Shown piece by piece: positions 1,556 to 19,266 of a stretch of 64,000 bases of DNA. Source of the stretch: Candidatus Binatus sp. (GTDB lineage: Bacteria > Desulfobacterota > Binatia > Binatales > Binataceae); NCBI RefSeq assembly GCF_030646925.1, contig NZ_JAUSKL010000027.1:1119-65118 (forward strand), read 5' to 3'. The notes under the pieces are model-generated. The model saw only the letters and a program-made list of their open reading frames with translations, searched no databases and was not told where the DNA came from. Position 1 is the first letter of the stretch; each line of letters opens with the position of its first letter. The position numbers and the translations under genes are program-made.

Positions 1556-4500
1556 CTACTTTCGGCGCACAGCGCGGCCCAGGTCGACCGCTCGCACAAA
1601 CCCGTCGTCGGTGTCCCTCTGAAAGCTCTTCCCCTTGGGTACCATCGCGCCCGCGGTCAGGTAGTCGCTTGGTCGGCATGTGAACACAACGATCTGAAAG
1701 TTGCGGGCCTTCTCGGCGAGCAGTGCGCGGAACCATTCCATCCGCGTACCGTCACTCTGTACCAGCTGATCGTCGAGCACGATAGTTGTAGATAGGTACT
1801 CTGCAAGGGCCAACCGGTACAATGTCGAGAGTTGCTCGCGAGTACCGACTGATATGCGGTCCGTTGGTCTAATCGCACCCGCGACCGCGACCCCTTCCGT
1901 CCCGAGTTCCGCGTTGATCTGGACGTTCTGGTAGCGACGCTGTGTCAAATCCTCGAAGCGGCTCGCGATGGCGGGTGCGAGCGTCTGGCCGAGGTTGCTC
2001 GCCTGCGCCACATCGGCCTCTTTCATCTGCTCAAGCAGCAACTGCCACGCATCATATTCCGCCTCGATTTCCCGCTCCTGGCGCTCCGCCGACTCGCACG
2101 CCTCGCTCGCGTCCCGCAGTCGCTCGCGCGCAACGGCGCCACCCACTTGCTCAAGCGCACCGTGCGTCCGATCGATCTCCCGCTGAATCGCTTCGAGACC
2201 CGACTCCGCCGACGTCTTGGCGCCCCGCGCAGCGTCGACTTCGGCCTCGGTCACGATTCGATCCGGGACCGGCATCGCGGCCCGTCTATCCGTTGCGCTT
2301 TTCAATCTGGACTCGGCGGCGGCGAGGTCCTGCGCGTCTCGCAGTTTTCGCAATTCTTCGAGGCGGCCGACTTGCAACGAGTGCGCAGTGATCGCGTTCG
2401 TTCGCTCCGTAGATGCGGCGTCGAGCTTGGTTTGTGCTCGTTCCGCGCTAGCGCGAGCTTCGCGGATTGCCGCTTCCACCCGAGCATTCTGTGCTGCGAT
2501 CGTGCTCTCATACGAGGCGAGTTCCGCCGCGACCTTCCGTTGCTCGCCCGCCGCGGCCGCTAGCGCAGCTTGAGCACCACCTAGCGTCGCAGCCACCCCT
2601 TCAGGAAAAGCGGTCAAAGCGGCATTCCGCGCGACGACCGCACCGTTCAGCGCTATCGCCGAATTCTTGGCGCGTTCTTCCGCCAGAGTGTGCGCGTTAC
2701 CGGCCTGAAGCGTAGTCGCGCGAGCCTGCTCAATCTCTTTCGACGCTCGCTGTCGGCGCTCTCGTAACGCTTGCGATGGCTCAGCGCCGAGCGCAGCCAG
2801 CTCGGGAAGGAGTGTTTCAAGGGCTACGTGTCCGAGCGCGGCGCGGCACGCCTTTTTGCGGTCGAGCGCCTCGCGCAGCTTTTGCGCCGTATCGATCAGC
2901 GAATCGATCTCCGCCTGCAGCGACTGCAACTCCGCGGCCTTCGCCTTGATGCTCGCCTCCAGCGTTTGCGACTCCGTGATCTTCGCGCTCAGGCCGTCGA
3001 GGTCCGCAACCTTGGCCGCCGCCAGATGTGGCTCGACCTCGCTTCTCCAACGACCTTCCAGCGCTTCGGCTGTCCGTTGTGCGTCGCGGCGCCCGCCCCG
3101 GATGCGCACAGTTGCGACATCGCCGATATCGAGGTCCACCTCGGCATCGGCTTCGACCTCCAACGTTGCACCAGATCGCGTCGGGTTCGCCGCCGTCCCA
3201 TCGTTTGTCACCCTGACCTCGATCGGGCGGTTCGGTGTGACCGTTACCACGAGACCGACATTGAGCGCGCCGCGGGCTCCGGCGAGATCGTTGGCGAGCT
3301 GGCGCATCGGACTCAGCGTATCGGCCGGCGGAACGACGATTGCCTCGCGTCGTTTCTGCAGCGCCTCGCGTTCGCTTGCTCCCGCTTCGAGGCGCGCTTG
3401 AAGGTTCGCGCGCCGGTCCACCTCGGCTTGCGCGGAGGTGACGCGATCGTCGGCATCGCGGGCCTCGAGCGCCCGTTGAAGTAGATCTATCCTGCCAACC
3501 TGCTCGTCGGCAGAATGTTCTTTAGCGGCCGCGTCGGCCAGCGCTACCTGCGCTTTTTCAGCTGCTGCCTGTTGAGCGCGATTCTCACGATCGGCGGCCG
3601 TCGCCGCATCGACGAGCTTCTGCGCGCTCGTCGCGCTATCGATCTTGCTTTGTGCCTCGTTCGACGCCTGGTCTGCCGCGACCTTTCTCAACTCCAGAGT
3701 CTGGCGAGCGACCGTGTCGGTCATGGCGGAATCAGATCCAGCAGCTTTCTTTGCGGATTCGAAGGCGGCATCCGCTTGTTCTTTCTGTAACTGCGCGACC
3801 TTCAGCGCCTGCTCTGCTGCCTCGAGCTTTCGACCGAGCTCTCCGACGCTTCGCTCCGCCGCATCCGCGTCGGCTATGATCTTCTGGATACGCAGCACCT
3901 CTTCGCGCGCTGCGCTTACCAGCCCGTCGGCTTCGTTAAGATCGGCGGCCTGCGCTGCGAGCTTTTCAGCAGTTGCAAGCTGCGCTGTCGCGACCGCCAC
4001 CGCCTCTTCGCGATCGCCGCGCTTCGACGTGAACTCGCGCAACTGCTTCTCGACACCTTCCGAATCCTCGACCAGTTTCTGGAGATCCTCCCTTTCCACC
4101 CTCGCCTGGTTCACGCGCGTCGCGGCGCGCTGGAATACGCTTCCCTTTGCGGTCTTCCTCGCGCCCCTATCGGTGAACGCCTCGTCGCGTCTTGCCTGCG
4201 TGGCTCGAAGCATCGCGGTGAAGAGAGGATCCTGTATCGCCGCCTGTAGCGCAGCCGCAATCAGTTCCCGTCCGGTGCCGCTCGGATCGCCTTGCAAGCT
4301 TTCGTTAAGGACGGCAGTCACCTCCGATTGCGTCGACAGCAGTGCGGTCGCAAGAAAGCTGGTCGGCAGCCCTCTGCCGCCTCCCGAGCCGCCCGGCTCC
4401 GGGATGCCCCATCGCAGGAGGTCACGGAGCCTGCCGTCCACTTTCCGCGCACGCTCGACATCGTCGAAATCCTTGCCGTTTTTCGACTCCTGCAACAACG

Positions 4501-4780
4501 CGGCGCCGCCTTTTCGGAATTCCTTCCTGACTCGCCAGATTCGCTGCTGCTCCGTCTCGAAAGTGAGTTCGACCACCGGATCGCGACCGCCGGTCCAGGG
4601 GACGTAGCCGTCGATGTGGGTCGAGGTGTGAGGAAGGAGCAACGCCAATCGGATTGCCTCTCCAAGCGTGGACTTGCCAAGATCGTTCGGGCCGTACAGC
4701 ACGTTGAGCCCCGGACCGAACTCGATATCCGCGTTCGTGATCGCCGCAAAGTCGGCAACATGCAGGCGAAGGAGCTTCAA
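1556..4780 (-). CDS. SMC-like coiled-coil ATPase (Rad50/SbcC/YhaN-type)
   Basis: Uninterrupted 1074-aa ORF. Walker A is GPNDLGKST near the N-terminus. More than 600 aa are A/E/R/Q-rich coiled-coil. The C-terminus carries a signature-like ISVGTREQLSTLYRLALA and a Walker B, TTIVLDDQL. The TTG start overlaps the upstream stop (TTGA). Confidence 0.85.
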   Translation of the reverse strand: MKLLRLHVADFAAITNADIEFGPGLNVLYGPNDLGKSTLGEAIRLALLLPHTSTHIDGYVPWTGGRDPVVELTFETEQQRIWRVRKEFRKGGAALLQESKNGKDFDDVERARKVDGRLRDLLRWGIPEPGGSGGGRGLPTSFLATALLSTQSEVTAVLNESLQGDPSGTGRELIAAALQAAIQDPLFTAMLRATQARRDEAFTDRGARKTAKGSVFQRAATRVNQARVEREDLQKLVEDSEGVEKQLREFTSKRGDREEAVAVATAQLATAEKLAAQAADLNEADGLVSAAREEVLRIQKIIADADAAERSVGELGRKLEAAEQALKVAQLQKEQADAAFESAKKAAGSDSAMTDTVARQTLELRKVAADQASNEAQSKIDSATSAQKLVDAATAADRENRAQQAAAEKAQVALADAAAKEHSADEQVGRIDLLQRALEARDADDRVTSAQAEVDRRANLQARLEAGASEREALQKRREAIVVPPADTLSPMRQLANDLAGARGALNVGLVVTVTPNRPIEVRVTNDGTAANPTRSGATLEVEADAEVDLDIGDVATVRIRGGRRDAQRTAEALEGRWRSEVEPHLAAAKVADLDGLSAKITESQTLEASIKAKAAELQSLQAEIDSLIDTAQKLREALDRKKACRAALGHVALETLLPELAALGAEPSQALRERRQRASKEIEQARATTLQAGNAHTLAEERAKNSAIALNGAVVARNAALTAFPEGVAATLGGAQAALAAAAGEQRKVAAELASYESTIAAQNARVEAAIREARASAERAQTKLDAASTERTNAITAHSLQVGRLEELRKLRDAQDLAAAESRLKSATDRRAAMPVPDRIVTEAEVDAARGAKTSAESGLEAIQREIDRTHGALEQVGGAVARERLRDASEACESAERQEREIEAEYDAWQLLLEQMKEADVAQASNLGQTLAPAIASRFEDLTQRRYQNVQINAELGTEGVAVAGAIRPTDRISVGTREQLSTLYRLALAEYLSTTIVLDDQLVQSDGTRMEWFRALLAEKARNFQIVVFTCRPSDYLTAGAMVPKGKSFQRDTDDGFVRAVDLGRAVRRK

Positions 4781-5940
4781 AGCGCGCGACCCGGAGGGCC
4801 CTCCTGGCTCTGCAGCAGCTTGTACAAGTGCGCGAGCGCGCGAGTTGCACGCGACCGCTCGGCCTCGTCAATCGAGTCTTCGATTAAGCGGTCGAGCCGC
4901 GCGATAGTGTCCCTTAGCACCGGCGGCAGATCGTCCGGGAAGATTCCTCCGGAACCGGCTTGCAACTTCAGGTTGGCTTTGTCCACCAAGAGGACGCCGG
5001 CGCGGCCATGGGTGGCGTCGGTGCCTTCAAGGTCACGCAAGATGCGCTCGACCTCGCTCTCCTCGGCAACGGACACCGTCATGTCCAGATGCAGCCTGAC
5101 CACGTGGCGCTCGAGGTCTGGCGTGGTCATAAATGTGCGCAACTCGTTGAGGTCGCGGCATCGCTGGTCGATCCAGCGCCAGAACGCCACCGGCTCGCGA
5201 GAAACGCGAGGCCGCGTCCCATGCCTGAAGAGCGCGACGAGTGCCACGTAGCCGGCATCGGGCTCGTCGAAGGTCGTGGGTTCGGGTGCACCGGGGTAAA
5301 TGGTCGGGACCGGCGAAGACGCGGTGACGTCGCGAAACGAATGCGTGTCGCCAATCGCGAGATAATCGAGCCCGCGATGCACGCCCGCATCCCGACAAAT
5401 CGGGAAGTTGGTCTGATAGCCGTCCATGTCGAACGTGCTGCCATGGACGCATCCGATTCGTATTCGTGCGTCACCCGGTTCGCGCGCGGGAAGCGACATC
5501 GCGAGGTCGTTCTCGCCTGCCTTGGACCGGCACGGTCTCGCATAGAGGATTGCGCCAGGCGCAAGGTCATAGAAAAACTCGTCATCATCGACGACGTGCA
5601 CCCACTTAGGAAGTTGCGATCGAAACGGGTGACTCTTCGCCCACACCGACTCGGAGGTAAGCGGATCGTGATTGCCCGGCACCAGGAAGACTGGGGGATG
5701 AGTGCCGCCTTGATTGCGAAACGTCACGGCCAGCCCCTCCCAGAAATCCTGGGCTGGAGTAGGGTCGTCGAACAGGTCGCCGGCGCATAGCACCGCGTCG
5801 ACCGCATTCCGCCGAGCGACATCCAGGATGGTCGCGATCACATCCATCCGCGCGCGCGACAGCTTCTGCTGCGCCTCCTCGGGGAAGGACGGAAACCGCC
5901 GCCCGAGATGCCAATCCGCAGTGTGCAGGATCTTCAGCAC
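4777..5940 (-). CDS. calcineurin-like metallophosphoesterase (Mre11/SbcD-type nuclease)
   Basis: Ordered motifs DWHLG, GDLFD, GNHD, GCVHG and GDTH. I place the start at GTG 5940..5938, which overlaps the helicase stop (TAGTG). The ORF-track ATG at 6039 would overlap the helicase by 100 nt. Confidence 0.85.
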   Translation of the reverse strand: MLKILHTADWHLGRRFPSFPEEAQQKLSRARMDVIATILDVARRNAVDAVLCAGDLFDDPTPAQDFWEGLAVTFRNQGGTHPPVFLVPGNHDPLTSESVWAKSHPFRSQLPKWVHVVDDDEFFYDLAPGAILYARPCRSKAGENDLAMSLPAREPGDARIRIGCVHGSTFDMDGYQTNFPICRDAGVHRGLDYLAIGDTHSFRDVTASSPVPTIYPGAPEPTTFDEPDAGYVALVALFRHGTRPRVSREPVAFWRWIDQRCRDLNELRTFMTTPDLERHVVRLHLDMTVSVAEESEVERILRDLEGTDATHGRAGVLLVDKANLKLQAGSGGIFPDDLPPVLRDTIARLDRLIEDSIDEAERSRATRALAHLYKLLQSQEGPPGRAL

Positions 5941-8924
5941 TACGCCTTCCGATTCATCGGCGCGATCCGGAACGCCACCTGGAACAGCCGGGTTGCGTTT
6001 GGGGCTCGGTACCGAAGCTCGTGATATTCGTTTCGCCATTTTCGATAGACCTCGTCCGCCCTGGAATCCAAAGCGTCGATCCGGCGTTCCAGCAGATCGG
6101 CCGTTATCGCCAGACGATTGATCTCCTCCTCGACTCGCTCGCGCGCGGTGGCGCCGACCACCGCATCACGCCGAGCCTTCGCGGAATCCAGCTTGTCGAG
6201 GATACTCGCCCGCTCGCGCCGGCTGACCAGGACCTTGTCGTCGACGAATCGTTCGAGCTGACCAATCGCCAGCTCGAAATGCTTTTGCTCACGCTTCTCA
6301 GTCTCGCGTTGATCGACAAAGATGGCCTCGTCGATCGCGTCGTCCAGCTCCTGCGGGTCAACAGTGACGCTGACTGTCTGACTATCGCTCGCCTTTAACC
6401 GCGCGATCCGGGCGGCCACCTCGGGATCGATCGGCATACCATCGACCACGCTACCGAAGATCAGGCGCTGTACCGGCTCGAAGCCGGCGTAATCGACCAT
6501 TGCGACGGCGAGGACGCCAATCTTTCCGGCCATCGCAGCGAGGTCCGGAGTAGCGTCGCGCGGGAGCATCAACTCGATCGATCCGCCCGGCCAGGCACGG
6601 GCATCTGCTATCGCCGCACGAACGAGCGGATGCGCGAGATTCAACGGCTCGGCGTCGATCAAGCCTCTGGCGTCGCCAGTCGCGAACCGACGACCCTCTC
6701 CGATCTCTGCAGGTAGTTCGGCGCTCGGCGCGATTTCGAACACTACCCGGCCCGACTTTTCGAAACGCTTATGAGCGATAGCGCCTGAAGCAAGGTAGCC
6801 TTCCACTAGGTCGGCGATATCACGGTCCAACTGCACGAGTCCCTCGGGAAGGTCCTCCCGCAAGCGTTTGAAAACCTTCCGCACGTCTTCATCGAACCGC
6901 GACTCGATAATCTGCGAGGTGCGTTGATATTCCTTTTCGTAAGCGTCCCTTCGGCCATCGATCTTGTCCCTCAATGCAGCAATCTCGCGCGTCACCTCGT
7001 CCAGCGTCCGCGACCGGCTATAAATGTTCCGGAGATCAGACTCGAACTCGAGAGAGAGAGCCGACACGACTATTTCGGGCGCGTCAGTGCGCGGTTCATG
7101 CAAAACCACATCGGAGGCATCGAGCACTCTTCCGAACAGGTCGAGTTTCTGACTCAGGATTTCAAAAGTCAGACGATGCGCTTCATTGTCCTTCGCTATG
7201 AAATTAACGACGGTCACGTCGCGTTGCTGGCTGTAGCGATGGCATCGCCCGATACGTTGCTCGATCCGCTGCGGGTTCCACGGCAAGTCGTAATTGATGA
7301 CCGTCTCGCAGAACTGAAGGTTGAGCCCCTTCGCACCAGCCTCCGTGCACACCAGCACCTTCGACCGCGTGCGGAACTCGTGAACGAGTGCCAGCCGCAC
7401 CGCGACTTCGCGTGTCGGTCGAGAACCCGGCGCAAGTTTGCTCCCCTCTTCCTCCAACCAGCGGGCGTGCGCTTGCTGCGCGCGTGCACCATCATTCGTG
7501 CCGCGGAATAGGGTGATTTCCTCGTCAGCCAGGCCAATACCGAGGAGTAGCTTCCGCAGGTACTCCTGGGTGGTGATGGACTCGGTGAACACCACCGCCT
7601 TGCCACTGCCGCGACCATCACGACCGAGATCGAGCACGACCCGGATAGCGTCCTGGAACGAGCGCGCTTTGGCATCGTGCGGAAGGGATTGTGCTCGAGC
7701 GACAAAGTCATCCACCAGAGCTAACTCGGCGGCGACCGCTTCATGATTGACCGGGACCGGCGCCTCCTCGGTGGATTCTTCCACCTCCTGATCCTCTTCC
7801 AGGTCGTCGAGCACCTCGGTCGCTTCGCCGATAACCGGTTGACCGGCGCCGAGGCGCCGGAGTCTCGCAGCTACGTTCTCGAGGCTCGCAGCAAGGGCTG
7901 GAATCGAGGACGCCATGCGGCGATGAAATCCAATCAGCAGCAAGCGCCGTTGTCGTCCGGCGAAAGCATACAATGTCGGCTGGAGGAGGTACTCGGTCAC
8001 GTCGTCGTAGAGCGAACGTTCGTCGTCGCTCATCGCGTACTCGTAAAGACGGCATCGGCGTTGCGTAAACGGCCGATCGAGAAACTCCTGCGCCTGGCGG
8101 CGCAACGTCCGCTGGAGCACCATCGCCAATCGCCGTTGCAGCTCGTGCTCCTGGCCGGGGATCAGCGTTCGGTCGTCCTCACTGCAGAACACCTGGCGAA
8201 ACGTCGTGATGTCCCCGAGCAAAGTGCCCGTCGGTTCCACGTACTGCACGAGGCCCCATAACTCAGCCAGCGAGTTCTGCATCGGAGTCGCGGTCAGCAG
8301 CAGCACCGGCGCCGTGCGCAGGAAGCCGCGCACCCGATGCGCCATCAGCGCCTCGATTGAGGTTTCGTCGTAGAGTCCGTCGCGTCCGTAGCGCTTGTGC
8401 AGGCCCGCAAAGATCTCGTGGGCCTCGTCGATAATCACCAGATCAAACGGTAAGACGGCGCCAAGCAGCCCGGCACCACGTTCACTCCCTGCGAACTCGC
8501 GCCCGACCAGGTAAACTCCGGGTCCGGAAAAGTCGGCCCGGTCCTCGCGAGCTTGAATGCCGAATAGATTGAGGAGTTCGTCCTGCCACTGCCCGATCAG
8601 TGACTTGGGAACAATTAGTAAGACGCGCTTTGCACCTTCGGCTAGGCTTTGCGCGAGCACCAGCCCCGCCTCGATCGTCTTTCCCAGTCCTACCTCGTCA
8701 GCAAGGATGCAACCGCCCTCGCGCAGGCGCCGAAGCGCGAAAATCACTGCGTCGATCTGATGCGGATTCGGGTCGATTCGCGCCTGCCGCTGCGACGACG
8801 CGTAGCGTTCCCGGTCATCCGGGCGGCGGACACGGACGAGATCCTCGGCCAGAATGCGCCGATTGAAAGCATGGAGGGTCCCGCTATTTCGTCCCGCCGG
8901 CACGGTCTTATTCCGCGAACGCAT
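5940..8924 (-). CDS. SNF2-family helicase/translocase with a long C-terminal extension
   Basis: Uninterrupted 994-aa ORF. Motifs seen: ILADEVGLGKT (motif I), VIIDEAHE (DEAH), LLLTATPMQNSLAELW, VLVCTEAGAKGLNLQ and NYDLPWNPQRIEQRIGRCHRYSQ. About 400 aa lie C-terminal of the helicase core and are partly coiled-coil. Confidence 0.9.
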   Translation of the reverse strand: MRSRNKTVPAGRNSGTLHAFNRRILAEDLVRVRRPDDRERYASSQRQARIDPNPHQIDAVIFALRRLREGGCILADEVGLGKTIEAGLVLAQSLAEGAKRVLLIVPKSLIGQWQDELLNLFGIQAREDRADFSGPGVYLVGREFAGSERGAGLLGAVLPFDLVIIDEAHEIFAGLHKRYGRDGLYDETSIEALMAHRVRGFLRTAPVLLLTATPMQNSLAELWGLVQYVEPTGTLLGDITTFRQVFCSEDDRTLIPGQEHELQRRLAMVLQRTLRRQAQEFLDRPFTQRRCRLYEYAMSDDERSLYDDVTEYLLQPTLYAFAGRQRRLLLIGFHRRMASSIPALAASLENVAARLRRLGAGQPVIGEATEVLDDLEEDQEVEESTEEAPVPVNHEAVAAELALVDDFVARAQSLPHDAKARSFQDAIRVVLDLGRDGRGSGKAVVFTESITTQEYLRKLLLGIGLADEEITLFRGTNDGARAQQAHARWLEEEGSKLAPGSRPTREVAVRLALVHEFRTRSKVLVCTEAGAKGLNLQFCETVINYDLPWNPQRIEQRIGRCHRYSQQRDVTVVNFIAKDNEAHRLTFEILSQKLDLFGRVLDASDVVLHEPRTDAPEIVVSALSLEFESDLRNIYSRSRTLDEVTREIAALRDKIDGRRDAYEKEYQRTSQIIESRFDEDVRKVFKRLREDLPEGLVQLDRDIADLVEGYLASGAIAHKRFEKSGRVVFEIAPSAELPAEIGEGRRFATGDARGLIDAEPLNLAHPLVRAAIADARAWPGGSIELMLPRDATPDLAAMAGKIGVLAVAMVDYAGFEPVQRLIFGSVVDGMPIDPEVAARIARLKASDSQTVSVTVDPQELDDAIDEAIFVDQRETEKREQKHFELAIGQLERFVDDKVLVSRRERASILDKLDSAKARRDAVVGATARERVEEEINRLAITADLLERRIDALDSRADEVYRKWRNEYHELRYRAPNATRLFQVAFRIAPMNRKA

Positions 8925-8930
8925 ACGCTG

Positions 8931-9641
8931 CTAGATCACGGGGGCAGCTATGCTCCGCCAGCCGTTGGAATAGTCGATCCTTGAATTCCATAATCGCTGA
9001 AACGTCTGCGCCGCAGAGCGCACCAATTCGGGGAGATCACGAACCTTGCGCAGATTCGGCGCGTTGATCGAATCATCGGTAAGCACGGCGCGGACCCCTC
9101 TCCAGCTTTCATTTATTCGCGATCGCGCGCCGTGTTCACGCTCGTGTTCTGTCGATCTTGCGTCGCAGTTTGTTCTCGACGTGCTGCGAATATTTAGCCA
9201 ATTCCTCCCCTGTGAGGCAAGCAATAGGCTATCATATGGAGCATCATAACAGATAAAAAGGGGCGGCGACCTCAATAAGTCGCAATCTATGAATTGGCTA
9301 ATAGGTCCCGCACCCCTCCTCTTCTTGGGCGCACCGCGGTTTGTTTGGATTGCTGCCATCGTATTGTTGATGGGAACCGCGGAAGATGCGATTCGGCTGT
9401 AACTCGTAGTATCGCGAGAGTATCGTCTGCATGAAGCTTTGATAAAGCGTTTTAATGACTTGCACGATGAGGGCATGATCTGGTCAACAAGCAGGGCACC
9501 CGACTTCGACGCCATGAGATTGCCTCTGTCGGGTCTAAGCGCGATGTTCGACCCTGATGTTCGTGGATCGTGCCAGGGGCGAATAATGGTTGCGCCAAAC
9601 TGTAACAGTGCCAAAGTTTCGTCCGCATTTTTGATCAACAC
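8931..9641 (-). CDS. hypothetical ORF upstream of the helicase (possibly only the last 51 codons are real)
   Basis: 236-aa ORF in a low-GC spacer, with its stop 7 nt before the helicase ATG. The 3' part, from GTG 9086 preceded by GGAGAGGGG, reads MLTDDSINAPNLRKVRDLPELVRSAAQTFQRLWNSRIDYSNGWRSIAAPVI and looks protein-like. The 5' part is R/S-rich and contains a promoter-like TTGCCT-18nt-TAAATA (9220..9191). I recognise no family. Confidence 0.25.
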   Translation of the reverse strand: MLIKNADETLALLQFGATIIRPWHDPRTSGSNIALRPDRGNLMASKSGALLVDQIMPSSCKSLKRFIKASCRRYSRDTTSYSRIASSAVPINNTMAAIQTNRGAPKKRRGAGPISQFIDCDLLRSPPLFICYDAPYDSLLLASQGRNWLNIRSTSRTNCDARSTEHEREHGARSRINESWRGVRAVLTDDSINAPNLRKVRDLPELVRSAAQTFQRLWNSRIDYSNGWRSIAAPVI

Positions 9642-9875
9642 GAAGTCGGGTCGTCACCCCCGCGGCCCCTTTGTGACCAAAGAGCCCATCATGTTCGCGC
9701 GCGGCAGCGATAATTTATTCGCGGAAATTGGGTTGCCATTTGTCGTTTCATGGCGTTTCGTGATGTGTTGAGCAGCCGACAAACAAAAGACCGGGCATGC
9801 AAAGGGCCGCAACACCAAGTCGTTATAGAGAGATAAACGTCGCCGTCGAGGCGAAAGAGGAAAGCGGCGCCTAGT

Positions 9876-12554
9876 ATGCTCGAATTAACTTTACGGGATG
9901 AGTTCAAGGGGGAACGCCTCAAAGGGACAACTATCGACTTCTCAGCCGATAAGCCGACAAGCGCCCTCCAAAGGTCGACGGCCGAGTTCCTGAGCATCAC
10001 CTATCCGTCCGTTGACCTCCTGCGCGTGTTCGAGGCGACGCAGCCGGACAAATCGCACCCCGTTGTGCTGTTGGGCGCGCGCGGTCAGGGCAAATCGCAC
10101 TTGATGGCTGCGCTCTGGCACGCAATCAAAGACCCGGCTGAGGCGACCAAGTGGCTGGCGAATTGGGCCGCGAAGTTGAACCGTCCGGAATTGAAGACCC
10201 TCAAGTTCCGCACCGATTTTTGCGTCATTGCTGAAAGCCTCCACCAGCAACGATTTAAGTTCTTGTGGGAGATCCTGTTTGACCGGCATCCGCAAGGCCA
10301 ACTCGTCAAAGGAAAATGGCTTGGCAAAGGCGATGCCAGGACCAACGTGCCCAGCATCGACCTGCTCCTTGAGATGTTTAAGGCGCAGCCAACCGTACTA
10401 CTGCTCGACGAGTTCCAGACGTGGTTTGATGGATTGAGCGATAGTCCAAAGGCGAAAACCCAAACTTGGGCGTTTAACTTCATCCAACTGCTCTCCGAAA
10501 TCGCGAATGACCATCCCGAACTGCTCGTATTCGTCGCCTCCATCCGCGACAATCAGTCGCAGGCATATCAGCAAATTCACCGCATCAATCCGGTGCTCGT
10601 CGATTTTCAAGGCACTCACGCCAAGCAAGATCGTCAGCGCCTTCTACTTTACCGGATTTTCGAGAATCGGCTGAACGTCCCTGGCGGGCAAATCAAGGCT
10701 CTCATCGAGCCGCATCTCTGGGAATACGTTCGTCTCGCGGAAATTCCTCCGTCGCAGCACGAAGCGAAGCGAAGCGAATTCGCGGAGGCGTGGCCCTACT
10801 CGCCCGTGCTGATGCGCTTGCTTGAAGACCAAGTGCTCGTCGCCACCGAAGCGCAAGAAACTCGCGATCTCATCCGCATCCTGGTTGACTTGTTCAAAAC
10901 CCGTGGCGAAAAGTCACCGGTCATCACCGCAGCAGACTTTGACATCAGCAGCGACAAAGGTAGCGTGACTTCGCTTTTGAGTTCTGTGGCCAATCAACTC
11001 CACAGGACACTGCTTGAAAAAGCGCGGCGCAACCTTGAGGCGGTCCGCATTGCGGTCCAAGACCCTGACAAGAATATTCCACACTCCTCGGACATTATCA
11101 GTGCGCTTTGGCTCCGTTCCTTAAGCGTTGATAGAATCAACGGCGCCGCACCTGCCGAATTGCAGTCCGACATCACTCGCAATGAGGCCATCGACGACAA
11201 CACGTTCGCTGCCGAGATGGCGCTCATCCGCGAGAACAGCTTCAACATCCACCCGGTTGGCAACCGTCTCGTGTTCAGGGAAGAGGAGAATGCCGAAGGC
11301 AAGCTGCTGGCTCACGCGAAGAATGACAAGCTGTTCGAGAGCAATCAGGACATCGAGCAGCTCGCGGCGGAAGTCCGCTACGTGATCGGCGGCAGCGAGG
11401 AAGTCTCCCGCAAGTTCCGCGTGGTGGTGCTCAGAAAGAATTGGCAAAGTGACCCGTGGACGGAACTCCCGGAGAACGAGCGACCTGATCGATGGGATGG
11501 TCGTCTGACTCTCATCGCACTGCCGGAGAATCTTGACAATGTCGAGGCGATCCTCGGCGCGTGGCTAAAGCGACATCTTCCCCAACGCCGCAACACGCTC
11601 CGGTTCCTCCTGCCGAAGAAAGCGTCCGCAAACATCTATTTCGACCGCGACCTGATTGTGTATGCGCGAGGCATCTATCTGGCGAACCAATGGAAGGACA
11701 CTGACTCAGCGTTTCGCCCGCTGTACACGACCTACCAGAATTCTCATCTTCGCCCACGGCTCAAAGACTTGTTCGACACTTTTGCTATCCTCGATGTCTG
11801 GAACTTCGTGCAGCCAGAGCAGTGCCGTTTCCTTATAGAGAAGCACAACGCCATCGGCGACAAGATTCCAAAGGCCATAGACGAGAAGATTGTGAACGAA
11901 CTGTTCATCGCGGAAGACTTCGAAGCCGCGGCGCTGGCGCACGCCACCGCCAGTTCGTCGCTCGCTAAGTTCATGGGTGATCTTCAAGAGCCAAGCATCG
12001 ACGGCAAGCACTGCATTCCTTGGCTCGGTGAAGTGGCGACGAAAGAAAAGGTTCTCCATCTTTGCGCCGATGGAAAGCTCTCGATCAACTTGCGTGGTCT
12101 GGAACTCCTTCAAGCACAGCCCGGCGAACCGGAAGACGCTGCGTGGATACGCATCAAGGGCAAGCTCGGTTCGGGCAAGGAGCTTGAGCAAACCATCCTA
12201 CAAGTACCCGGTGCTTATCCCCAGAGTGGAGGTACGATGCCGTTTCAATTGACTCCGACAACTCAACAGCCACCGACAACGGCATCGGTGCCCGGAGTTG
12301 TTCCGCCGTCCAAAATATTCGGCGACGATTCGTTGGCTTCTACTACGCCGATACTCAAACCGTTCGGTACTCCACCAAAGACTCCGATGAACCTGCTTGG
12401 CGAAGTTGAGAAATGGGGTATCAGTCCAGCGACCAGCGTGACCAACGTGAACATTAACGTCTCTCAAATGACCGGCGCGCAACTGACCGATTTGCTCAAG
12501 AAGCTCCCGGATGGCGGAATGTTTTCGCTGACCCTGGAGAAGCAAACGCAATGA
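9876..12554 (+). CDS. DUF499/BrxC(PglY)-like P-loop ATPase
   Basis: 892-aa ORF. The N-terminus, FLSITYPSVDLLRVFEAT...VVLLGARGQGKSHLMAALWHA, matches the DUF499 pattern (TYPT..L..., Walker A, ..LAL.H). Walker B is TVLLLDEFQTW. GC is lower than in the flanks. The stop overlaps the next ATG (ATGA). Confidence 0.75.
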   Translation: MLELTLRDEFKGERLKGTTIDFSADKPTSALQRSTAEFLSITYPSVDLLRVFEATQPDKSHPVVLLGARGQGKSHLMAALWHAIKDPAEATKWLANWAAKLNRPELKTLKFRTDFCVIAESLHQQRFKFLWEILFDRHPQGQLVKGKWLGKGDARTNVPSIDLLLEMFKAQPTVLLLDEFQTWFDGLSDSPKAKTQTWAFNFIQLLSEIANDHPELLVFVASIRDNQSQAYQQIHRINPVLVDFQGTHAKQDRQRLLLYRIFENRLNVPGGQIKALIEPHLWEYVRLAEIPPSQHEAKRSEFAEAWPYSPVLMRLLEDQVLVATEAQETRDLIRILVDLFKTRGEKSPVITAADFDISSDKGSVTSLLSSVANQLHRTLLEKARRNLEAVRIAVQDPDKNIPHSSDIISALWLRSLSVDRINGAAPAELQSDITRNEAIDDNTFAAEMALIRENSFNIHPVGNRLVFREEENAEGKLLAHAKNDKLFESNQDIEQLAAEVRYVIGGSEEVSRKFRVVVLRKNWQSDPWTELPENERPDRWDGRLTLIALPENLDNVEAILGAWLKRHLPQRRNTLRFLLPKKASANIYFDRDLIVYARGIYLANQWKDTDSAFRPLYTTYQNSHLRPRLKDLFDTFAILDVWNFVQPEQCRFLIEKHNAIGDKIPKAIDEKIVNELFIAEDFEAAALAHATASSSLAKFMGDLQEPSIDGKHCIPWLGEVATKEKVLHLCADGKLSINLRGLELLQAQPGEPEDAAWIRIKGKLGSGKELEQTILQVPGAYPQSGGTMPFQLTPTTQQPPTTASVPGVVPPSKIFGDDSLASTTPILKPFGTPPKTPMNLLGEVEKWGISPATSVTNVNINVSQMTGAQLTDLLKKLPDGGMFSLTLEKQTQ

Positions 12555-13129
12555 CGGCTGACCGCGATCCGACGCTCGATTCCATTCTTACCGCCACATC
12601 CAAGGAGGCCTGGCAGGTGATATTTGACAGGCTTTGGGAAATCTTCTCGGCCCCCCTTACCTCGCAGCATGCCGAACAGGAAGTCGCCGACCGCGAGAGT
12701 AAGGTCAGCGAAATTGAACTGCTGCTTTCCAGTTCCGCATGGGAACTCTGGCGCGAATTTGAAAGCTCCGTGCCGCGCACCGCGCAATCCGTCATCGACT
12801 TCTGGAACAGCGCCACCAGCGGCAAGGCCGTTTTGATCCTTGACGGGTTGTCGCTGCGTGAGTCGCCGTGGCTGCTGCAAGAAGCCGAGCGACGCGGCTA
12901 CCACATTCAGCAGGCCGGCGCGCGCGGCTCGGAAATTCCGAGCGAGACCAGACCCTTCGCCAGGGCGCTGGGGTTCGGACAACGGTCGTCGATCGAAAAT
13001 AACGGCGCGGGGATGGCGCACCTTCTTCCGGGCGCACGCACGGAAAGTTTGAATGTCGCGTGGGACTACTGCCACGACTGGATCGCATCCGCGCCAGCCA
13101 TCGTGCTTTGGCATCATTGGCCCGCAGGT
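12551..13129 (+). pseudogene. PglZ-like (alkaline-phosphatase superfamily) gene, 3'-truncated
   Basis: GKAVLILDGLSLRESPWLL and SEIPSETRPFARALGFG resemble the PglZ metal-ligand Asp and the PS.T nucleophile region. After about 190 aa the frame continues as the antisense of coxG and is meaningless. Full PglZ proteins are several hundred aa longer. Confidence 0.55.
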
Positions 13130-13501
13130 CAAGCGCTGACCAACCTGCATCAGCGGGCCGCCGATTTGTACATCGCCGGCGTATTTCACAATCGTGGTGC
13201 GAGGATCTTTTGCCTCGAGGTCGAGCGTTCCCGAGCCGCGAATGAAACCCTGCTTGCCCTTGCCGTCCAGGAGCATCTTGTAGTGCTCGGGGGGGCGTTT
13301 TTCTTCGAGCTTGAGATTCCCCGCGTAGGTTCCCTTGACGGCCGCGATTCCGACGTTGATGGCGCCGGCGAATTGATCGGGGCCAAGGATCTCGAGCTTT
13401 TCGCATCCGGGGATAAGCCGCGACAGCCGCTCGGGATCGTTGAGAAGTTCCCACACCCGTTGGCGCGGGGCGGGAAGAGTGGTTTCACCAGCCAGCTTCA
13501 T
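13130..13501 (-). pseudogene. coxG: CoxG-like (SRPBCC) carbon monoxide dehydrogenase subunit G, 3'-truncated
   Basis: MKLAGETTLPAPRQRVWELLNDPERLSRLIPGCEKLEILGPDQFAG...KYAGDVQIGGPLMQVGQRL is a typical CoxG core. Similarity ends after about 124 aa. The ORF then runs 220 codons through the antisense of the PglZ-like gene. Confidence 0.7.
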
Positions 13502-13545
13502 CGCAGATTCATGTAGTCCCGGTGCGAGCGATCAATCGCGACGAG

Positions 13546-14413
13546 TCAGGCTTTCGCGCGGGCGACCGCCAGCTCGAGTGCGCGGCGAGTATAAACCCGC
13601 GCGAGTTCGGCGCGGAAATCCGCCGCCGCGTGAATGTCGGCGAGCGCATCGACACCGTCGGCCGCGTGCGATGCGGCCGTTGCGATCGCGGCCGCAGGTT
13701 TGCCTGCGAGCGCCGTTTCGACTGCCGTGGCGCGAAACGCCTTCGAGGCCAGGCCGGTGATACCGACCCGCACTCGGGCGCAATTTCCCTGGGCGTCGAG
13801 CGCGACTACTGCGGCGACGCCGACCAGCGCGAATCCGGAAGCAGGTTGGCGATGCTTCAAATAAGCTGCGCCGGCGCCGGCTGGAAGCGGCGCGACCGAA
13901 ACGCCGGTCAGAATCTCGCCGTGCTGAACGGCCGTGGTCATGAGTGAGATCGACAAAGAAGTCCTCTGCCTTAATCGTGCGCGTGCCGCGGGCACCTTCC
14001 ACGCGGATTTCCGCCTCGAGCGCCAGGATTGCCGCCGGATAGTCCGCGGCAGGATCCGAATGGGCCAGGCTGCCGCCAATGGTGCCCCGGTTGCGGACTT
14101 GCACGTCTCCGATCAGCGCGGCGCACTCCGATAGCATCGCGAGCTTGCCCTTGACGAGCCCCGAGGATTCGACCTGGTGATGCGTGGCCAGGCCGCCGAT
14201 CACAATCCTGCCGCCTTCCTCCTTAATCTCGGCCAGGCCGGTGACGGCGCCGATATCGATGAGATACGCCGGCTGCGCCAGCCGCAGTTTCATCATCGGG
14301 ATAAGACTGTGACCGCCGGCGAGCAACTTGGCATCGTCGCCGAACTGCGAGAGCATCGCGAGCGCATCCTTGACGGAGGAGGCGCGGTGATATTCGAATG
14401 AGGCAGGAAACAT
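13546..14413 (-). pseudogene. coxM: CoxM-like FAD-binding medium subunit of a molybdenum hydroxylase, frameshifted
   Basis: The N-terminal part (ORF 13532..14413) reads MFPASFEYHRASSVKDALAML...KLLAGGHSLIPMMKLRLA...IKAEDFFVDL. The continuation, MTTAVQHGEILTGVSV...AAADFRAELARVYTRRALELA, lies in ORF 13546..14079. The frames switch near 13945. Confidence 0.8.
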
Positions 14414-14417
14414 CGGG

Positions 14418-16760: not shown

Positions 16761-16781
16761 CGCTCTCTCCTTGGAAATCGT

Positions 16782-17257
16782 TCAAGCGCGCTCGCTGGAA
16801 CGCATCTTTTCAGCGGCGTACTGGATCGCCTTGATGATGTGCTGGTAGCCGGTGCATCGACACAGGTTGCCCTCGAGCGCCTCGCGGATTTGCGCCTCAG
16901 TCGGGTTCGGGTTTCGGCTCAAGAGATCCGTCGCCGTCATGATCATGCCGGGTGTGAATAGCCGCATTGAAGGCCGTGCTCCTCCCAGAAGCCTTCCTGA
17001 ATAGGATTCATCTTGCCGTTTTTGGCGAGGCCCTCGACAGTCGTGATTTGGCTGCCTTCAGCCTGCACGGCGAGTGTGGTGCACGACTTGACCGCTTGCC
17101 CATTGATCAGCACCGTGCATGCGCCGCACAGCGAGGTCTCGCATCCGACATGGGTGCCGGTCAGTTGCGCGACATCGCGGAGGTAGTGCACGAGCAGCAT
17201 GCGCGGGTCGATGTCGTCATCGTGGCGCTCGCCGTTGATCGTGACAGTTAGCTGCAT
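16782..17257 (-). pseudogene. coxS: CoxS-like [2Fe-2S] small subunit, frameshifted
   Basis: ORF 16943..17257 ends ...EEHGLQCGY|SHPA and ORF 16782..16967 continues (R)[14 protein letters not shown]...CRCTGYQHI. The expected sequence GLQCGYCTPGMIM is restored by adding one G near 16957. Confidence 0.85.
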
Positions 17258-17431
17258 AGTTATGTCGCTCCTGAGGATAATGTTGGCCCGTTCCGGGTAA
17301 ACATTCGCTGCCCAGCCTCGCCGTCGGTAAGAGTTCTCCTCTGACCTGTTCGGCGAACGGTCGAGATCTAACCGAACGCGGCTCGGCCCGTAGCGCGGGC
17401 GGGCCGCATCCGGAAAGCTTGATCGTAACTA

Positions 17432-18447
17432 TCAGGTCAAGCCGAATACCAGCCGAGCCCGGACGCGACCTTCCTCGACTTCCGCGAACGATTCGTTGAC
17501 CTGCTCGAGTTTGCGCTTCTCATAGATAACCTTGGTCATTCCGGCGGCCTGCAACTCGAACGTCTCCGCGAGGTCAACCCGCGTGCCGACGACCGAGCCG
17601 GCAATCGAGATCGCGTTGAGCACCGTCTCGAAGATTGGAATCTGGACCGAGTTCTCAGCCGGCAGTCCGACGAACACCAATCTGCCGCCGCGGCGCAGTT
17701 CCCTTGTATGCGCTGTCATATGTCGAGGGCGAAACCGCGACCACAATTGCGGAATCGGCGCCGCCGAGCTTCTTGAGCGCCTCCGCGGCATCCTCCTTGC
17801 GCGCATTGATCGTGTAACGCGCGCCGAGTTCCTTGGCGAGTTCGAGCTTGTCGTCGAGAACATCCACCGCGACGACCGTCGCCCCGGCAATCCGCGCATA
17901 CTGAAGCGCCAGATGTCCCAGTCCGCTGATACCGAAAATGGCAACCAGGTCGGACGATCGCGCGCCGGCCACCTTGACGGCCTTGTAGGTCGTAACGCCA
18001 GCGCAGGTGAGCGGCGCCGCCGCAAAAGGATCGACCCCCCGCGGGCACTTTGCAGACGTACTTTCCATAAGCCAGCGCGTACTCGGCGTAGCTGCCATCG
18101 ATGAAATAGCCGGTGTCTAGCTGCTGCTCGCACAGCGTCTCCCGACCTGATCCGCAGTACTCGCAGGCGCCGCACGCGTATCCCAGCCACGGAATCGCTA
18201 CGCGATCACCCTCCTTGACCTCCGAGACGCCGGCGCCGAGGCGCTCGACGATTCCGACGCCTTCATGCCCCGGCACCAGCGGCAGCTTCGGCTTGACCGG
18301 CCAGTCGCCGTGGGCCGCGTGGATGTCCGTATGGCAAAGCCCTGACGCCTCGATTTTTACCACCACCTGGCCGGGGCCAGGTTCCGGTTTTGGGAGATTC
18401 TAGATAGTCAGTGGCGCGCCGAATGTTCTAATAACCGCTGCTTTCAT
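17432..18447 (-). pseudogene. Zn-dependent alcohol dehydrogenase (AdhP-like), nonsense codon plus two frameshifts
   Basis: From ATG 18447 the gene reads MKAAVIRTFGAPLTI-TAG(18402..18400)[34 protein letters not shown].... An extra G in a G run near 18037 separates KVPAG from [18 protein letters not shown]. An extra A near 17700 separates ...DSAYK from [13 protein letters not shown].... Confidence 0.85.
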
Positions 18448-18562
18448 GCTAGGTCACCCATTTTCGCTAGGATTCGTCTCATGAGAATCAAATCACGCAA
18501 TTGCAAATTAGAAATTCTAAACAATCAATCGAACCAGGATCGATATTATGAGAGCGAGGCCG

Positions 18563-19218: not shown

Positions 19219-19266
19219 GACTTCATGAGCGGGCGACCCGCCACTCGGAACATTGGCTGCACGACC

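What the first reader, a model, noticed from the sequence alone, without database searches (positions are those of the whole stretch)
1556..8924. Translationally coupled SNF2 helicase -> SbcD-like nuclease -> SbcC/YhaN-like ATPase operon
Three long, uninterrupted ORFs (994, 387 and 1074 aa) are joined by overlapping stop/start codons. TAGTG at 5940 joins the helicase to the phosphoesterase, and TTGA at 4777-4780 joins the phosphoesterase to the ATPase. This argues for stoichiometric co-expression of one complex. Mre11/Rad50-type pairs normally stand alone as DNA-end processing machines. Here the pair is hard-wired to a Snf2 translocase that has a roughly 400-aa non-catalytic C-terminal extension. 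It also sits back-to-back with BREX-type genes and next to a region of heavy gene decay in which these 7.4 kb stay perfectly open. That pattern fits a selected, probably anti-foreign-DNA module: a translocase that senses or tracks DNA plus an SMC-clamp nuclease effector.
Basis: partly seen in the sequence, partly recalled or inferred. Interest (0 to 1): 0.75.

Follow-up and report, generated by a model that had tools for sequence, protein, structure and literature searches.

The report
SNF2 helicase fused to Mre11/Rad50-like pair
Three tightly overlapping genes (a DNA-tracking motor, a DNA-cutting enzyme and a long-armed clamp ATPase) form one cassette that moves between unrelated soil bacteria and often sits among anti-virus genes, so it is most likely an unnamed, untested bacterial immune system built from DNA-repair parts.

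Summary
Three intact minus-strand genes lie at 5940..8924 (SNF2 helicase, 994 aa), 4777..5940 (Mre11/SbcD-type nuclease, 387 aa) and 1556..4780 (Rad50/SbcE-like ATPase, 1074 aa). They are joined by TAGTG and TTGA overlaps.

The trio is a conserved unit. Anchored on either the nuclease or the helicase C-terminal extension, 83/83 loci with room carry the nuclease and 65/67 carry the ATPase. Overlapping junctions are conserved, and the three proteins' distance matrices correlate at r = 0.92-0.96.

The cassette is horizontally mobile. Copies in Verrucomicrobiota and Acidobacteriota are 85% identical, while copies within Acidobacteriota are about 52%. Flanks are never conserved.

At least 22 of 60 loci have known defence genes within 10 kb (Hhe, Gabija, Zorya ZorD, Type III R-M, Hma).

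The cassette matches no PADLOC v2 system, no NCBIfam equivalog and no paper I could search.

The ATPase lacks a zinc hook, has an apex beta-domain, and carries invariant Walker B E->D and H-loop H->C changes. The helicase extension has no structural match.

Best reading (about 0.58): an unnamed candidate anti-foreign-DNA system, a motorised Mre11-Rad50. The main rival is an accessory DNA-end repair module of the SbcEF type. The "BREX neighbours" claim is overstated. Function is inferred, not shown.

The parts
5940..8924 (-). Gene 1: SNF2-family helicase/translocase, 994 aa (Walker A GLGKT at aa 79-83, DEAH at aa 166-169, motif VI QRIGRCHR)
   Evidence: ORF. Pfam SNF2-rel_dom 1.1e-24 and Helicase_C 7.5e-17. 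PADLOC DrmD PDLC02619 6e-130 over aa 28-694. NCBIfam DrmD_b 433.6 bits against a cutoff of 950. Closest solved structures are RapA and eukaryotic remodellers. Motifs read.
7125..8798 (-). SNF2 ATPase core of the helicase (about aa 43-600)
   Evidence: Extent of the Pfam, PADLOC and PDB matches.
5943..7094 (-). Family-specific C-terminal extension of the helicase (aa 611-994): long helices, a beta-rich domain (about aa 718-847), and a coiled-coil hairpin
   Evidence: AlphaFold2 with a 30-sequence alignment gave mean pLDDT 79.8. Foldseek found no match with E < 0.1 in PDB and none with E < 0.01 in BFVD. Homology searches find it only at the C-terminus of 925-1027-aa proteins of this family: 218 proteins, and 388 clusters at 50% identity.
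5938..5942 (-). Junction 1: TAGTG, where the helicase stop TAG overlaps the nuclease start GTG by 1 nt. A GGAAGG Shine-Dalgarno-like motif lies 4 nt upstream of the GTG.
   Evidence: Sequence. The family-wide junction overlaps by 7, 4 or 1 nt in 84 of 95 loci.
4777..5940 (-). Gene 2: Mre11/SbcD-type binuclear metallophosphoesterase nuclease, 387 aa (D9, H11, D55, N90, H91, H166, D198, H200)
   Evidence: Pfam Metallophos 3.2e-13. NCBIfam SbcD TIGR00619 66.2 bits, below the 77.65 cutoff. A profile against PDB matches T. maritima Mre11 and E. coli SbcD in both halves of the fold. The motif residues are invariant in 22 homologues. No PADLOC family matches.
4777..4780 (-). Junction 2: TTGA, where the nuclease stop TGA overlaps the ATPase start TTG by 4 nt
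   Evidence: Sequence. A 4-nt overlap (ATGA, TTGA or GTGA) occurs in 59 of 69 loci, and a 1-nt overlap in one more.
1556..4780 (-). Gene 3: Rad50/SbcC/SbcE-like ABC ATPase with long coiled-coil arms, 1074 aa. It has no CxxC hook.
   Evidence: Pfam SMC_N, AAA_23 and AAA_15 on the N-terminus. Rad50 is the best match in NCBIfam and PDB. The AF2 topology is head, a helical arm of about 265 aa, an apex beta-domain, a helical arm of about 360 aa, and head. Length is conserved at about 1077 aa across homologues.
3092..3265 (-). Apex beta-rich domain of the ATPase (aa 506-563), replacing the Rad50 zinc hook
   Evidence: There is no CxxC and only 3 Cys in the protein. Conserved residues are L506, V508, G509, V514, D527 and R561-G563. 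AF2 predicts strands at aa 510-562 between the two arms.
1559..1903 (-). C-terminal head half of the ATPase: signature S977-V-G-T-R-E-Q, Walker B V-L-D1003-D1004, D-loop Q-S-D1010, and T-C1035-R-P at the H-loop position
   Evidence: Sequence. All are invariant in 32 homologues. The region aligns to the P. furiosus Rad50 signature region.
8925..9875 (.). Upstream intergenic region shared with the divergent neighbour, presumably holding the promoter. The 236-aa ORF here (8931..9641) is probably not a gene.
   Evidence: GC is 0.533 against 0.618 for the window. The ORF has no family hit and no homologue next to the trio in 98 related loci. Promoter and terminator scans are at chance level.

Best explanation
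This is a self-contained, horizontally mobile three-gene cassette. It most likely encodes one complex that acts against foreign DNA, such as phages or plasmids. The proposed mechanism has three parts. First, the Rad50/SbcE-like ATPase dimerises through its heads and through an apex beta-domain instead of a zinc hook, and clamps DNA ends or unusual DNA structures as Mre11-Rad50/SbcCD does. Its catalytic residues are non-canonical (Walker B Glu->Asp, H-loop His->Cys), which suggests a slow, switch-like ATPase rather than a motor. Second, the SNF2 protein supplies the motor. It translocates along double-stranded DNA, and its family-specific coiled-coil and beta-domain extension is predicted to tether it to the clamp-nuclease. 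Third, the Mre11-type nuclease, which has a complete metal-binding site, degrades the tracked DNA. The cassette carries no methyltransferase, so self versus non-self discrimination would rest on DNA ends, topology or structure rather than on modification. What is shown: the genes and motifs, strict co-occurrence, conserved overlapping junctions, co-inheritance, horizontal transfer, and defence-island context. What is inferred: a physical complex, the division of labour, the target, and the defence function.
For: The unit is conserved: the nuclease follows the helicase in 83/83 loci and the ATPase follows in 65/67. The two exceptions are decayed copies with a truncated nuclease. Overlapping stop/start junctions are conserved in 84/95 and 60/69 loci. 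The three proteins' pairwise-identity matrices correlate at r = 0.92-0.96 over 861 locus pairs. Horizontal transfer is clear: the Chthoniobacterales and Bryobacteraceae copies are 85/86/76% identical for helicase/nuclease/ATPase, whereas Bryobacteraceae against other Acidobacteriota is about 51-54% for the helicase and nuclease and lower for the ATPase. All three genes show the same three clades. None of the window's flanking genes travels with the trio. Defence context is frequent. Hhe/PDC-S37 lies next to the trio in 13 loci, with GajA in 4, Type III MTase or Res in 3-4, HmaB/DUF1156 in 3 and ZorD in 3. At least 22 of 60 loci with usable flanks are affected. One contig reads Hma | trio | Gabija. 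Others have TIR, integrase/resolvase, relaxase or terminase nearby. The helicase core is closest to defence SNF2 clades: DrmD 6e-130, BrxH 4e-56, HmaA and DpdE. All catalytic motifs are intact and invariant. It is absent from plasmid, phage and IMG/VR collections, so it behaves as an accessory gene set, not a core one.
Against: No experiment supports the function. No PADLOC v2.0.0 model covers the nuclease, and none covers the ATPase beyond generic N-terminal hits. The closest characterised relatives of the nuclease-ATPase pair, SbcCD and B. subtilis SbcEF, are DNA-repair or competence factors (PMC2811018). Many loci (38 of 60) show no recognised defence gene nearby, and some flanks are plainly metabolic. 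The 37% figure is a lower bound but was not compared with a matched background. Complex formation and the role of the helicase extension are unmodelled, because no multimer prediction was available. The ATPase heads were poorly modelled, with pLDDT below 50.
Confidence: 0.58

Rival explanations
1. This is an accessory DNA-repair or recombination module: an SbcEF/SbcCD-type end-processing complex with a dedicated SNF2 motor for end resection or for clearing protein-blocked ends. It would be functionally analogous to the archaeal Mre11-Rad50-HerA-NurA operon, or to eukaryotic MRN working with Fun30/SMARCAD1/INO80. It would spread horizontally as a fitness cassette, not as immunity.
For: The best structural and sequence relatives of the pair are Mre11/SbcD and Rad50. 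The architecture (no CxxC, a central domain between arms of about 300 aa, nuclease gene upstream) mirrors B. subtilis SbcE/SbcF, which have DSB-repair and competence phenotypes. The cassette has no methyltransferase or other obvious self-marking component. Some loci lie among ordinary metabolic genes. Related two-gene pairs at about 30% identity occur without any helicase on rhizobial megaplasmids among housekeeping-like genes.
Against: The distribution is sporadic and crosses phyla, and the phylogeny is incongruent with the species tree. Flanks are never conserved. The cassette recurs next to Hhe, Gabija, Zorya, Type III R-M and Hma genes. The helicase is closest to defence-system SNF2 clades. 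Decayed copies exist, as expected for dispensable genes.
Confidence: 0.25
2. This is cargo of integrative or conjugative elements and serves the element itself, for example in processing its own DNA ends or replication intermediates, in entry exclusion, or in attacking competing elements.
For: TrwC relaxase, TrwB coupling protein, integrase, resolvase, transposase and terminase genes lie within 10 kb in several loci.
Against: Most loci show no mobile-element genes. No close relative was found in 72,556 plasmids, 50,697 phages or 2.9 million IMG/VR contigs. No flanking repeats or att-like sites occur around the window copy.
Confidence: 0.07
3. The trio is only part of a larger system that needs a fourth component, such as the Hhe-like helicase-nuclease, the 470-513-aa HATPase_c protein, or the DUF499-like ATPase pair seen beside it.
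For: Hhe lies 19-122 bp upstream on the same strand in several loci. The HATPase_c gene lies 30-36 bp downstream on the same strand in four loci. The DUF499-like pair neighbours the trio both in the window and in L240.
Against: Each of these is present in at most 13 of 87 loci. Each occurs on either side, in either orientation and at variable distances. Hhe is by itself a described single-gene system model in PADLOC. Most trios have none of them.
Confidence: 0.05

Closest known systems
Mre11-Rad50 / bacterial SbcCD
   Same: It pairs a binuclear metallophosphoesterase nuclease carrying the Mre11 motifs with an ABC ATPase whose head halves are separated by long antiparallel coiled coils. The nuclease gene lies directly upstream of the ATPase gene and overlaps it. 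These are the best matches among solved structures.
   Different: Scores are below the NCBIfam SbcD and Rad50 cutoffs. There is no CxxC zinc hook; an apex beta-domain takes its place. Walker B is DD rather than DE, and the H-loop His is replaced by Cys. Motif V is GDxH rather than GHxH. An SNF2 helicase gene is always fused into the operon. The cassette is accessory and horizontally mobile, not a core gene set.
Bacillus subtilis SbcE/SbcF (YhaN/YhaO)
   Same: It has an SMC-like ATPase that lacks CxxC, with heptad arms of about 300 aa around a distinct central domain, partnered with an upstream SbcD-like nuclease. About a third of the ATPase homologues carry Pfam AAA_27, the YhaN-type domain.
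   Different: SbcEF has no SNF2 partner and is described as conserved in Gram-positive genomes, with repair and competence phenotypes. Here the pair is welded to a helicase, is sporadic in Gram-negative soil phyla, and sits in defence islands. Homology of the central domains was not tested.
DISARM helicase DrmD (class 1 DISARM)
   Same: The SNF2 core is most similar to the DrmD models: PADLOC 6e-130 and NCBIfam DrmD_b 1.5e-129 over about 650 aa.
   Different: The score of 433.6 is far below the equivalog cutoff of 950. The C-terminal third is unrelated. No DrmA, DrmB, DrmC or DrmM genes accompany it.
Lamassu (LmuA/LmuB/LmuC)
   Same: It has a Rad50/SbcC-related SMC-like ATPase in a compact defence-island cassette. 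Lamassu is proposed to derive from SbcCD and to sense DNA ends (PMC12663957). The ATPase gives a weak LmuB hit of 46.6 bits.
   Different: The trio keeps a complete Mre11-type nuclease, instead of an LmuC remnant plus a swappable LmuA effector. Its arms are full length. It adds a helicase. No LmuA or LmuC hit was found.
Archaeal Mre11-Rad50-HerA-NurA operon and eukaryotic MRN plus SNF2 remodellers (Fun30/SMARCAD1, INO80)
   Same: In both, an Mre11-Rad50 machine is coupled with an ATP-driven DNA translocase. This comparison rests on my own knowledge of those pathways.
   Different: The motor families differ (HerA is a FtsK-like hexamer), or the association is non-operonic and regulatory in eukaryotes. 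Those are repair functions. There is no evidence of common descent of the association.

Membership tests
SbcCD / Mre11-Rad50 | Mre11-type phosphoesterase motifs (I DxH, II GD, III GNH[DE], IV H, V GHxH) | tested here: met
   D9/H11, G54-D55, G89-N-H-D92, H166 and G197-D-T-H200 are all invariant in 22 homologues. Motif V has Asp in place of the first His.
SbcCD / Mre11-Rad50 | Passes the curated SbcD, Mre11 or Rad50 family thresholds (NCBIfam) | tested here: not met
   TIGR00619 scores 66.2 against 77.65. PRK10966 scores 52.9 against 450. Rad50 PRK03918 scores 43.4 against 700.
SbcCD / Mre11-Rad50 | ABC ATPase head split by long antiparallel coiled coil | tested here: met
   The N-terminal head matches Rad50 over aa 1-93, and the signature region aligns at aa 943-1004. 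The AF2 secondary structure shows helices at aa 215-479 and aa 594-957.
SbcCD / Mre11-Rad50 | CxxC zinc hook at the coiled-coil apex | tested here: not met
   The protein has no CxxC and only 3 Cys. A beta-domain at aa 510-562 occupies the apex.
SbcCD / Mre11-Rad50 | Canonical Walker B hhhhDE and H-loop His | tested here: not met
   VLDD(1003-1004) and T-C1035-R-P are invariant in 32 sequences. The residue correspondence to Rad50 comes from a manual extension of the alignment.
SbcEF (YhaO/YhaN) | SMC-like ATPase without CxxC, with a distinct central domain between heptad regions of about 300 aa, and an SbcD-like gene upstream | tested here: met
   The definition comes from PMC2811018.
SbcEF (YhaO/YhaN) | Sequence membership (Pfam AAA_27/PF13514, or homology of the central domain to B. 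subtilis SbcE) | tested here: inconclusive
   The window protein has no AAA_27 hit at E <= 0.01. About one third of close homologues list PF13514.
DISARM | DrmD equivalog score, and co-occurrence with DrmA, DrmB, DrmC or a methylase | tested here: not met
   The score is 433.6 bits against a cutoff of 950. There are no Drm partners in the window or among 103 immediate neighbours in related loci.
Lamassu | LmuB plus an LmuA effector (with the LmuA C-terminal domain) plus LmuC | tested here: not met
   Only a weak LmuB hit was found (46.6 bits). The nuclease has no PADLOC hit at all.
Wadjet | JetA, JetB, JetC and JetD components | tested here: not met
   No Jet models appear among the PADLOC hits listed for any of the three proteins. 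For the helicase and ATPase only the best 25 families are shown.
BREX / BREX-related DUF499 (Hma) systems | BrxC or DUF499 ATPase together with a PglX or DUF1156 methyltransferase and a helicase or PglZ | tested here: not met
   The neighbouring 892-aa gene has marginal DUF499 (25.3 bits) and HmaC (15.3 bits) hits. No methyltransferase or PglZ was detected among the ORFs of at least 200 aa scanned between 1 and 29 kb. The definition comes from PMC12839542.
Anti-phage defence system (operational, defence-island criterion) | A conserved gene cassette recurrently located next to known defence systems in unrelated genomes | tested here: met
   At least 22 of 60 loci have Hhe, Gabija, ZorD, Type III R-M or Hma genes within 10 kb. 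One contig reads Hma | trio | Gabija. No matched background rate was computed.
Anti-phage defence system (operational, defence-island criterion) | Experimental protection against phage or plasmid | not testable with these tools
   This requires cloning and challenge assays.

The most novel reading that the evidence does not exclude
The cassette is a new class of immune machine: a 'motorised Mre11-Rad50'. A hook-less Rad50-like clamp with an attenuated ATPase (Walker B E->D, H-loop H->C) has outsourced movement to a physically tethered SNF2 translocase, which docks through a coiled-coil and beta-domain fold not seen elsewhere. The assembly would destroy invading DNA processively, recognising ends or topology rather than modification. 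It would be a living intermediate between the SbcCD repair complex and the Lamassu-type immune systems proposed to descend from it, and a bacterial parallel to the cooperation of MRN with SNF2 remodellers in eukaryotes.
Probability: 0.3. Interest if true: 0.8.

Novelty: new variant of a known kind. Interest (0 to 1): 0.62.

Why it matters
If the cassette defends against phages or plasmids, three things follow.

- It would add a system in which an intact Mre11-Rad50-type nuclease complex, not a derived remnant as in Lamassu, is the immune effector.
- It would give SNF2 helicases a concrete mechanistic partner. These helicases recur in DISARM, BREX, Zorya, Dpd and Hma, and their roles are poorly understood.
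- It would make the proposed route from SbcCD repair to SMC-based immunity directly testable.

The non-canonical ATPase residues and the hook-less apex domain also offer a natural experiment on how Rad50-type clamps work.

If the cassette turns out to be a repair module instead, it would be the first bacterial Mre11-Rad50 machine with a built-in chromatin-remodeller-type motor.

The family lives almost entirely in uncultured soil and peat lineages (Acidobacteriota, Binatota, Verrucomicrobiota, Rokubacteria), which are under-sampled by defence-system discovery.

Tried and rejected
1. Known-system assignment. PADLOC v2.0.0, NCBIfam and Pfam gave no system-level match. DrmD, SbcD and Rad50 all scored below their cutoffs.

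2. Literature. Eight full-text searches and eleven papers were read, and two further look-ups failed. The terms covered SNF2, SbcC, SbcD, Mre11, Rad50, YhaN, DrmD and 'SbcCD-like' in a defence context, plus the BREX-diversity, Dnd, Lamassu and SMC-immunity papers, the Millman survey, a conjugation-barrier preprint, soil functional selections and language-model predictions. None describes this trio. The Krishnan et al. 2020 ABC-ATPase classification, the paper most likely to mention it, is not held.

3. Mobile carriers. The plasmid, phage and IMG/VR collections hold only relatives below 35% identity.

4. Fold of the helicase extension. Foldseek against PDB and BFVD gave nothing significant.

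5. ATPase model. The heads had pLDDT below 50, so the model was used only for topology and was not searched.

6. Insertion boundaries. Repeats and promoter/terminator scans were at chance level. No tRNA or Rfam family occurs in the window.

7. A fourth conserved gene. The upstream 236-aa ORF is not conserved. Hhe, HATPase_c and the DUF499-like genes are variable neighbours, not subunits.

8. Organism names from cluster members. Only 'Acidobacteriota' and 'Candidatus Binataceae' were returned, with generic product names.
Full report
OBSERVATION. The three minus-strand ORFs are present exactly as reported.

- They are 5940..8924 (994 aa), 4777..6039 as the maximal ORF, and 1556..4780 (1074 aa).
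- The nuclease almost certainly begins at the GTG at 5940, giving 387 aa. The phosphoesterase domain and the SbcD-like N-terminus MLKILHTADWHLG start there, and homologues are 386-387 aa.
- The helicase stop TAG (5942..5940) shares one base with that GTG.
- The nuclease stop overlaps the ATPase TTG start in TTGA at 4780..4777.
- Domain evidence makes these genuine genes: SNF2-rel_dom plus Helicase_C, Metallophos, and a Rad50-type ABC head.

WHAT THE PROTEINS ARE.

Helicase:
- It carries all the SNF2 motifs (GLGKT, DEAH, QRIGRCHR).
- Its core (aa 28-694) is closest to the DISARM DrmD models (E = 6e-130), followed by BrxH, HmaA, DpdE and ZorD. It scores 433.6 bits against the DrmD_b cutoff of 950, so it is DrmD-like but not DrmD.
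- Residues 611-994 form a family-specific extension. AlphaFold2 (pLDDT 79.8) predicts long helices, a beta-rich domain and a coiled-coil hairpin.
- Foldseek finds nothing significant for the extension in PDB or BFVD.
- Both a word-indexed search (218 proteins) and an exhaustive profile search (388 clusters at 50% identity) find the extension only at the C-terminus of 925-1027-aa proteins of this one architecture.

Nuclease:
- It keeps every Mre11 metal ligand (D9, H11, D55, N90, H91, H166, D198, H200), invariant in 22 homologues.
- Its profile matches Mre11/SbcD in both halves of the fold.
- It is below the SbcD thresholds and matches no PADLOC model.

ATPase:
- It has a Rad50-like N-terminal head and signature region.
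- Two helical arms of about 265 and 360 aa surround a small conserved beta-domain at aa 506-563.
- There is no CxxC zinc hook.
- Its Walker B is VLDD, and T-C-R-P occupies the H-loop position. Both are invariant in 32 sequences.
- This architecture (no hook, a central domain, nuclease gene upstream) is that described for B. subtilis SbcE/SbcF.

IS THE TRIO A UNIT? Yes.

- A scan of 185,579 species genomes, anchored on the nuclease, found 12 true relatives. All have the helicase directly upstream, and 11 have the ATPase directly downstream.
- A metagenome scan anchored on the helicase extension added 80 loci.
- Over all family loci, the nuclease follows the helicase in 83 of 83 loci with room, and the ATPase follows in 65 of 67.
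- The two exceptions (L012, L246) have a truncated nuclease and are decayed copies.
- Stop/start overlaps are conserved. Helicase to nuclease overlaps by 7, 4 or 1 nt in 84 of 95 loci. Nuclease to ATPase overlaps by 4 nt in 59 of 69 loci, and by 1 nt in one more.
- Pairwise-identity matrices of the three proteins across 42 complete loci correlate at r = 0.92-0.96, so there has been no module shuffling.
- The ATPase evolves faster: median identity to the window is 58%, against 77% for the other two. This is expected for coiled coils.
- None of the window's flanking ORFs accompanies the trio elsewhere. The one exception is the DUF499-like pair, seen once more in a different arrangement in L240.

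MOBILITY AND CONTEXT.

- True relatives come from Verrucomicrobiota, Binatota, Acidobacteriota, Rokubacteria, Gammaproteobacteria and Myxococcota MAGs.
- The cassette tree contradicts the species tree. Chthoniobacterales against Bryobacteraceae is 85/86/76% identical for helicase/nuclease/ATPase. Bryobacteraceae against Acidiferrales or Terriglobales is about 51-54% for the helicase and nuclease, and lower for the ATPase. An Acidobacteriota copy groups with gammaproteobacterial copies. All three genes show the same three clades.
- No close relative occurs on plasmids, phages or IMG/VR contigs.
- The plasmid hits at about 30% identity are two-gene exonuclease plus AAA-ATPase pairs without a fixed helicase. 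The SNF2 fusion therefore defines this subfamily.
- Flanks vary widely, but known defence genes recur:
  - Hhe/PDC-S37 in 13 loci
  - Gabija GajA in 4, and GajB in 3 immediate neighbours
  - Type III methyltransferase or Res in 3-4
  - HmaB/DUF1156 methylase in 3
  - ZorD in 3
  - TrwC relaxase in 3, plus integrase, resolvase, transposase, TIR and terminase genes
- At least 22 of 60 loci with 3 kb or more of flanking ORFs carry a recognised defence gene. This is a lower bound, because only recurrent clusters were annotated. No matched background was computed.

MECHANISM (inferred).

- By analogy with Mre11-Rad50/SbcCD, the ATPase dimer would clamp DNA ends or structures and license the nuclease.
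- The invariant E->D and H->C substitutions suggest slow, switch-like ATP turnover.
- The obligatory SNF2 partner would supply translocation or remove protein blocks.
- The helicase's unique coiled-coil extension is the obvious candidate tether to the ATPase arms.
- No methyltransferase belongs to the cassette. Discrimination would therefore rest on DNA ends, topology or structure, as proposed for SbcCD, Lamassu and Wadjet.
- I put the defence reading at about 0.58, and an accessory repair or resection module of the SbcEF type at about 0.25.

- 'BREX-type genes' is overstated. The divergent 892-aa gene has marginal DUF499 and HmaC hits and no methyltransferase partner.
- 'Gene decay' is partly true: there is a frameshifted MoCoBD gene and a truncated pmoB/pmoA pair.
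- The upstream 236-aa ORF is not conserved and is probably not a gene.

NOVELTY.

- No PADLOC v2.0.0 system, NCBIfam equivalog, source annotation (only generic 'AAA family ATPase' or 'SbcCD subunit' names) or searchable paper describes this trio.
- One potentially relevant paper, the ABC-ATPase classification in NAR 2020, is not held.
- I classify the cassette as a new variant of a known kind: a Mre11-Rad50/SbcEF-type complex with a dedicated SNF2 motor, in defence-island context.

Noticed in passing
window 9876..12554 (+) and 12551..13516 (+); L240:15709-18959: An 892-aa STAND/DUF499-like ATPase (DUF499 25.3 bits, AAA_16, weak HmaC) overlaps by 4 nt with a 321-aa ORF that has no family hit. 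A homologous pair (50% and 44% identity) also lies next to the trio in L240, but downstream and co-oriented. This looks like a separate two-gene module, possibly an undescribed defence pair. Its GC of 0.557 is below the window's 0.618.
   Followed up: partly
L216:5837-7249, L220:15572-16978, L221:15578-16990, L229:15572-16984, L211:6709-8133, L247:3811-5223, L198/L199:17635-19176: A 470-513-aa protein with a weak HATPase_c (GHKL) domain and no PADLOC hit recurs beside the trio in 9 loci. It appears on either side and in either orientation, often only 30-98 bp away. It could be an uncharacterised single-gene defence candidate.
   Followed up: partly
L213:2647-8097, L198:3001-8169, L220:3609-8165 and 10 other loci: A 1500-1800-aa Hhe/PDC-S37-type protein (DUF4011, AAA_11/12 helicase, MTES_1575 endonuclease and a GreA/B C-terminal domain) is the most frequent neighbour, found in 13 of 87 loci. 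It is often 19-122 bp upstream of the SNF2 gene on the same strand. The pairing may be a preferred two-system arrangement.
   Followed up: partly
window 13532..22300: This is a gene-decay patch. A xanthine-dehydrogenase-type molybdopterin subunit is split between overlapping ORFs 14418..15395 and 14861..16486 (a frameshift), and its hammerhead domain is truncated. The pmoB-like gene (19551..20549) lacks about 58 N-terminal model positions. A pmoA-like gene lies at 20892..21788, with no room for pmoC before copB (22278). Whether these are true pseudogenes or assembly errors was not resolved.
   Followed up: partly
window 1559..1903 (ATPase aa 960-1074): The Walker B catalytic Glu is replaced by Asp (VLDD), and the H-loop His by Cys (TCRP). 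Both are invariant in the family. This is unusual for Rad50/SMC-type ATPases and suggests altered ATP turnover.
   Followed up: partly
L012:10001-10513; L246:11158-12141; L086:8511-10007: These are decayed copies of the cassette. In L012 and L246 the nuclease is truncated and the ATPase is missing. In L086 the helicase has lost its N-terminal half. This shows the cassette is dispensable in some lineages.
   Followed up: yes
window 19551..25102 and L002: The window encodes pmoA/pmoB-like and copA/copB genes at about 62% GC. Its cassette is 87-91% identical in nuclease and helicase to one in a Candidatus Binataceae MAG (L002), although the flanks differ. The source organism may be a Binatia-like soil bacterium. 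This is an inference only.
   Followed up: no
L168 (Methylocystis sp. MJC1 plasmid NZ_CP107561.1, 106006-123022): A distant helicase-less exonuclease plus AAA-ATPase pair (about 29% identity) sits among a SIR2-family protein plus ATP-binding protein, a Fic protein, a QueC-like synthase, a methyltransferase and a UvrD helicase. The broader two-gene family may therefore also be defence-island associated.
   Followed up: no
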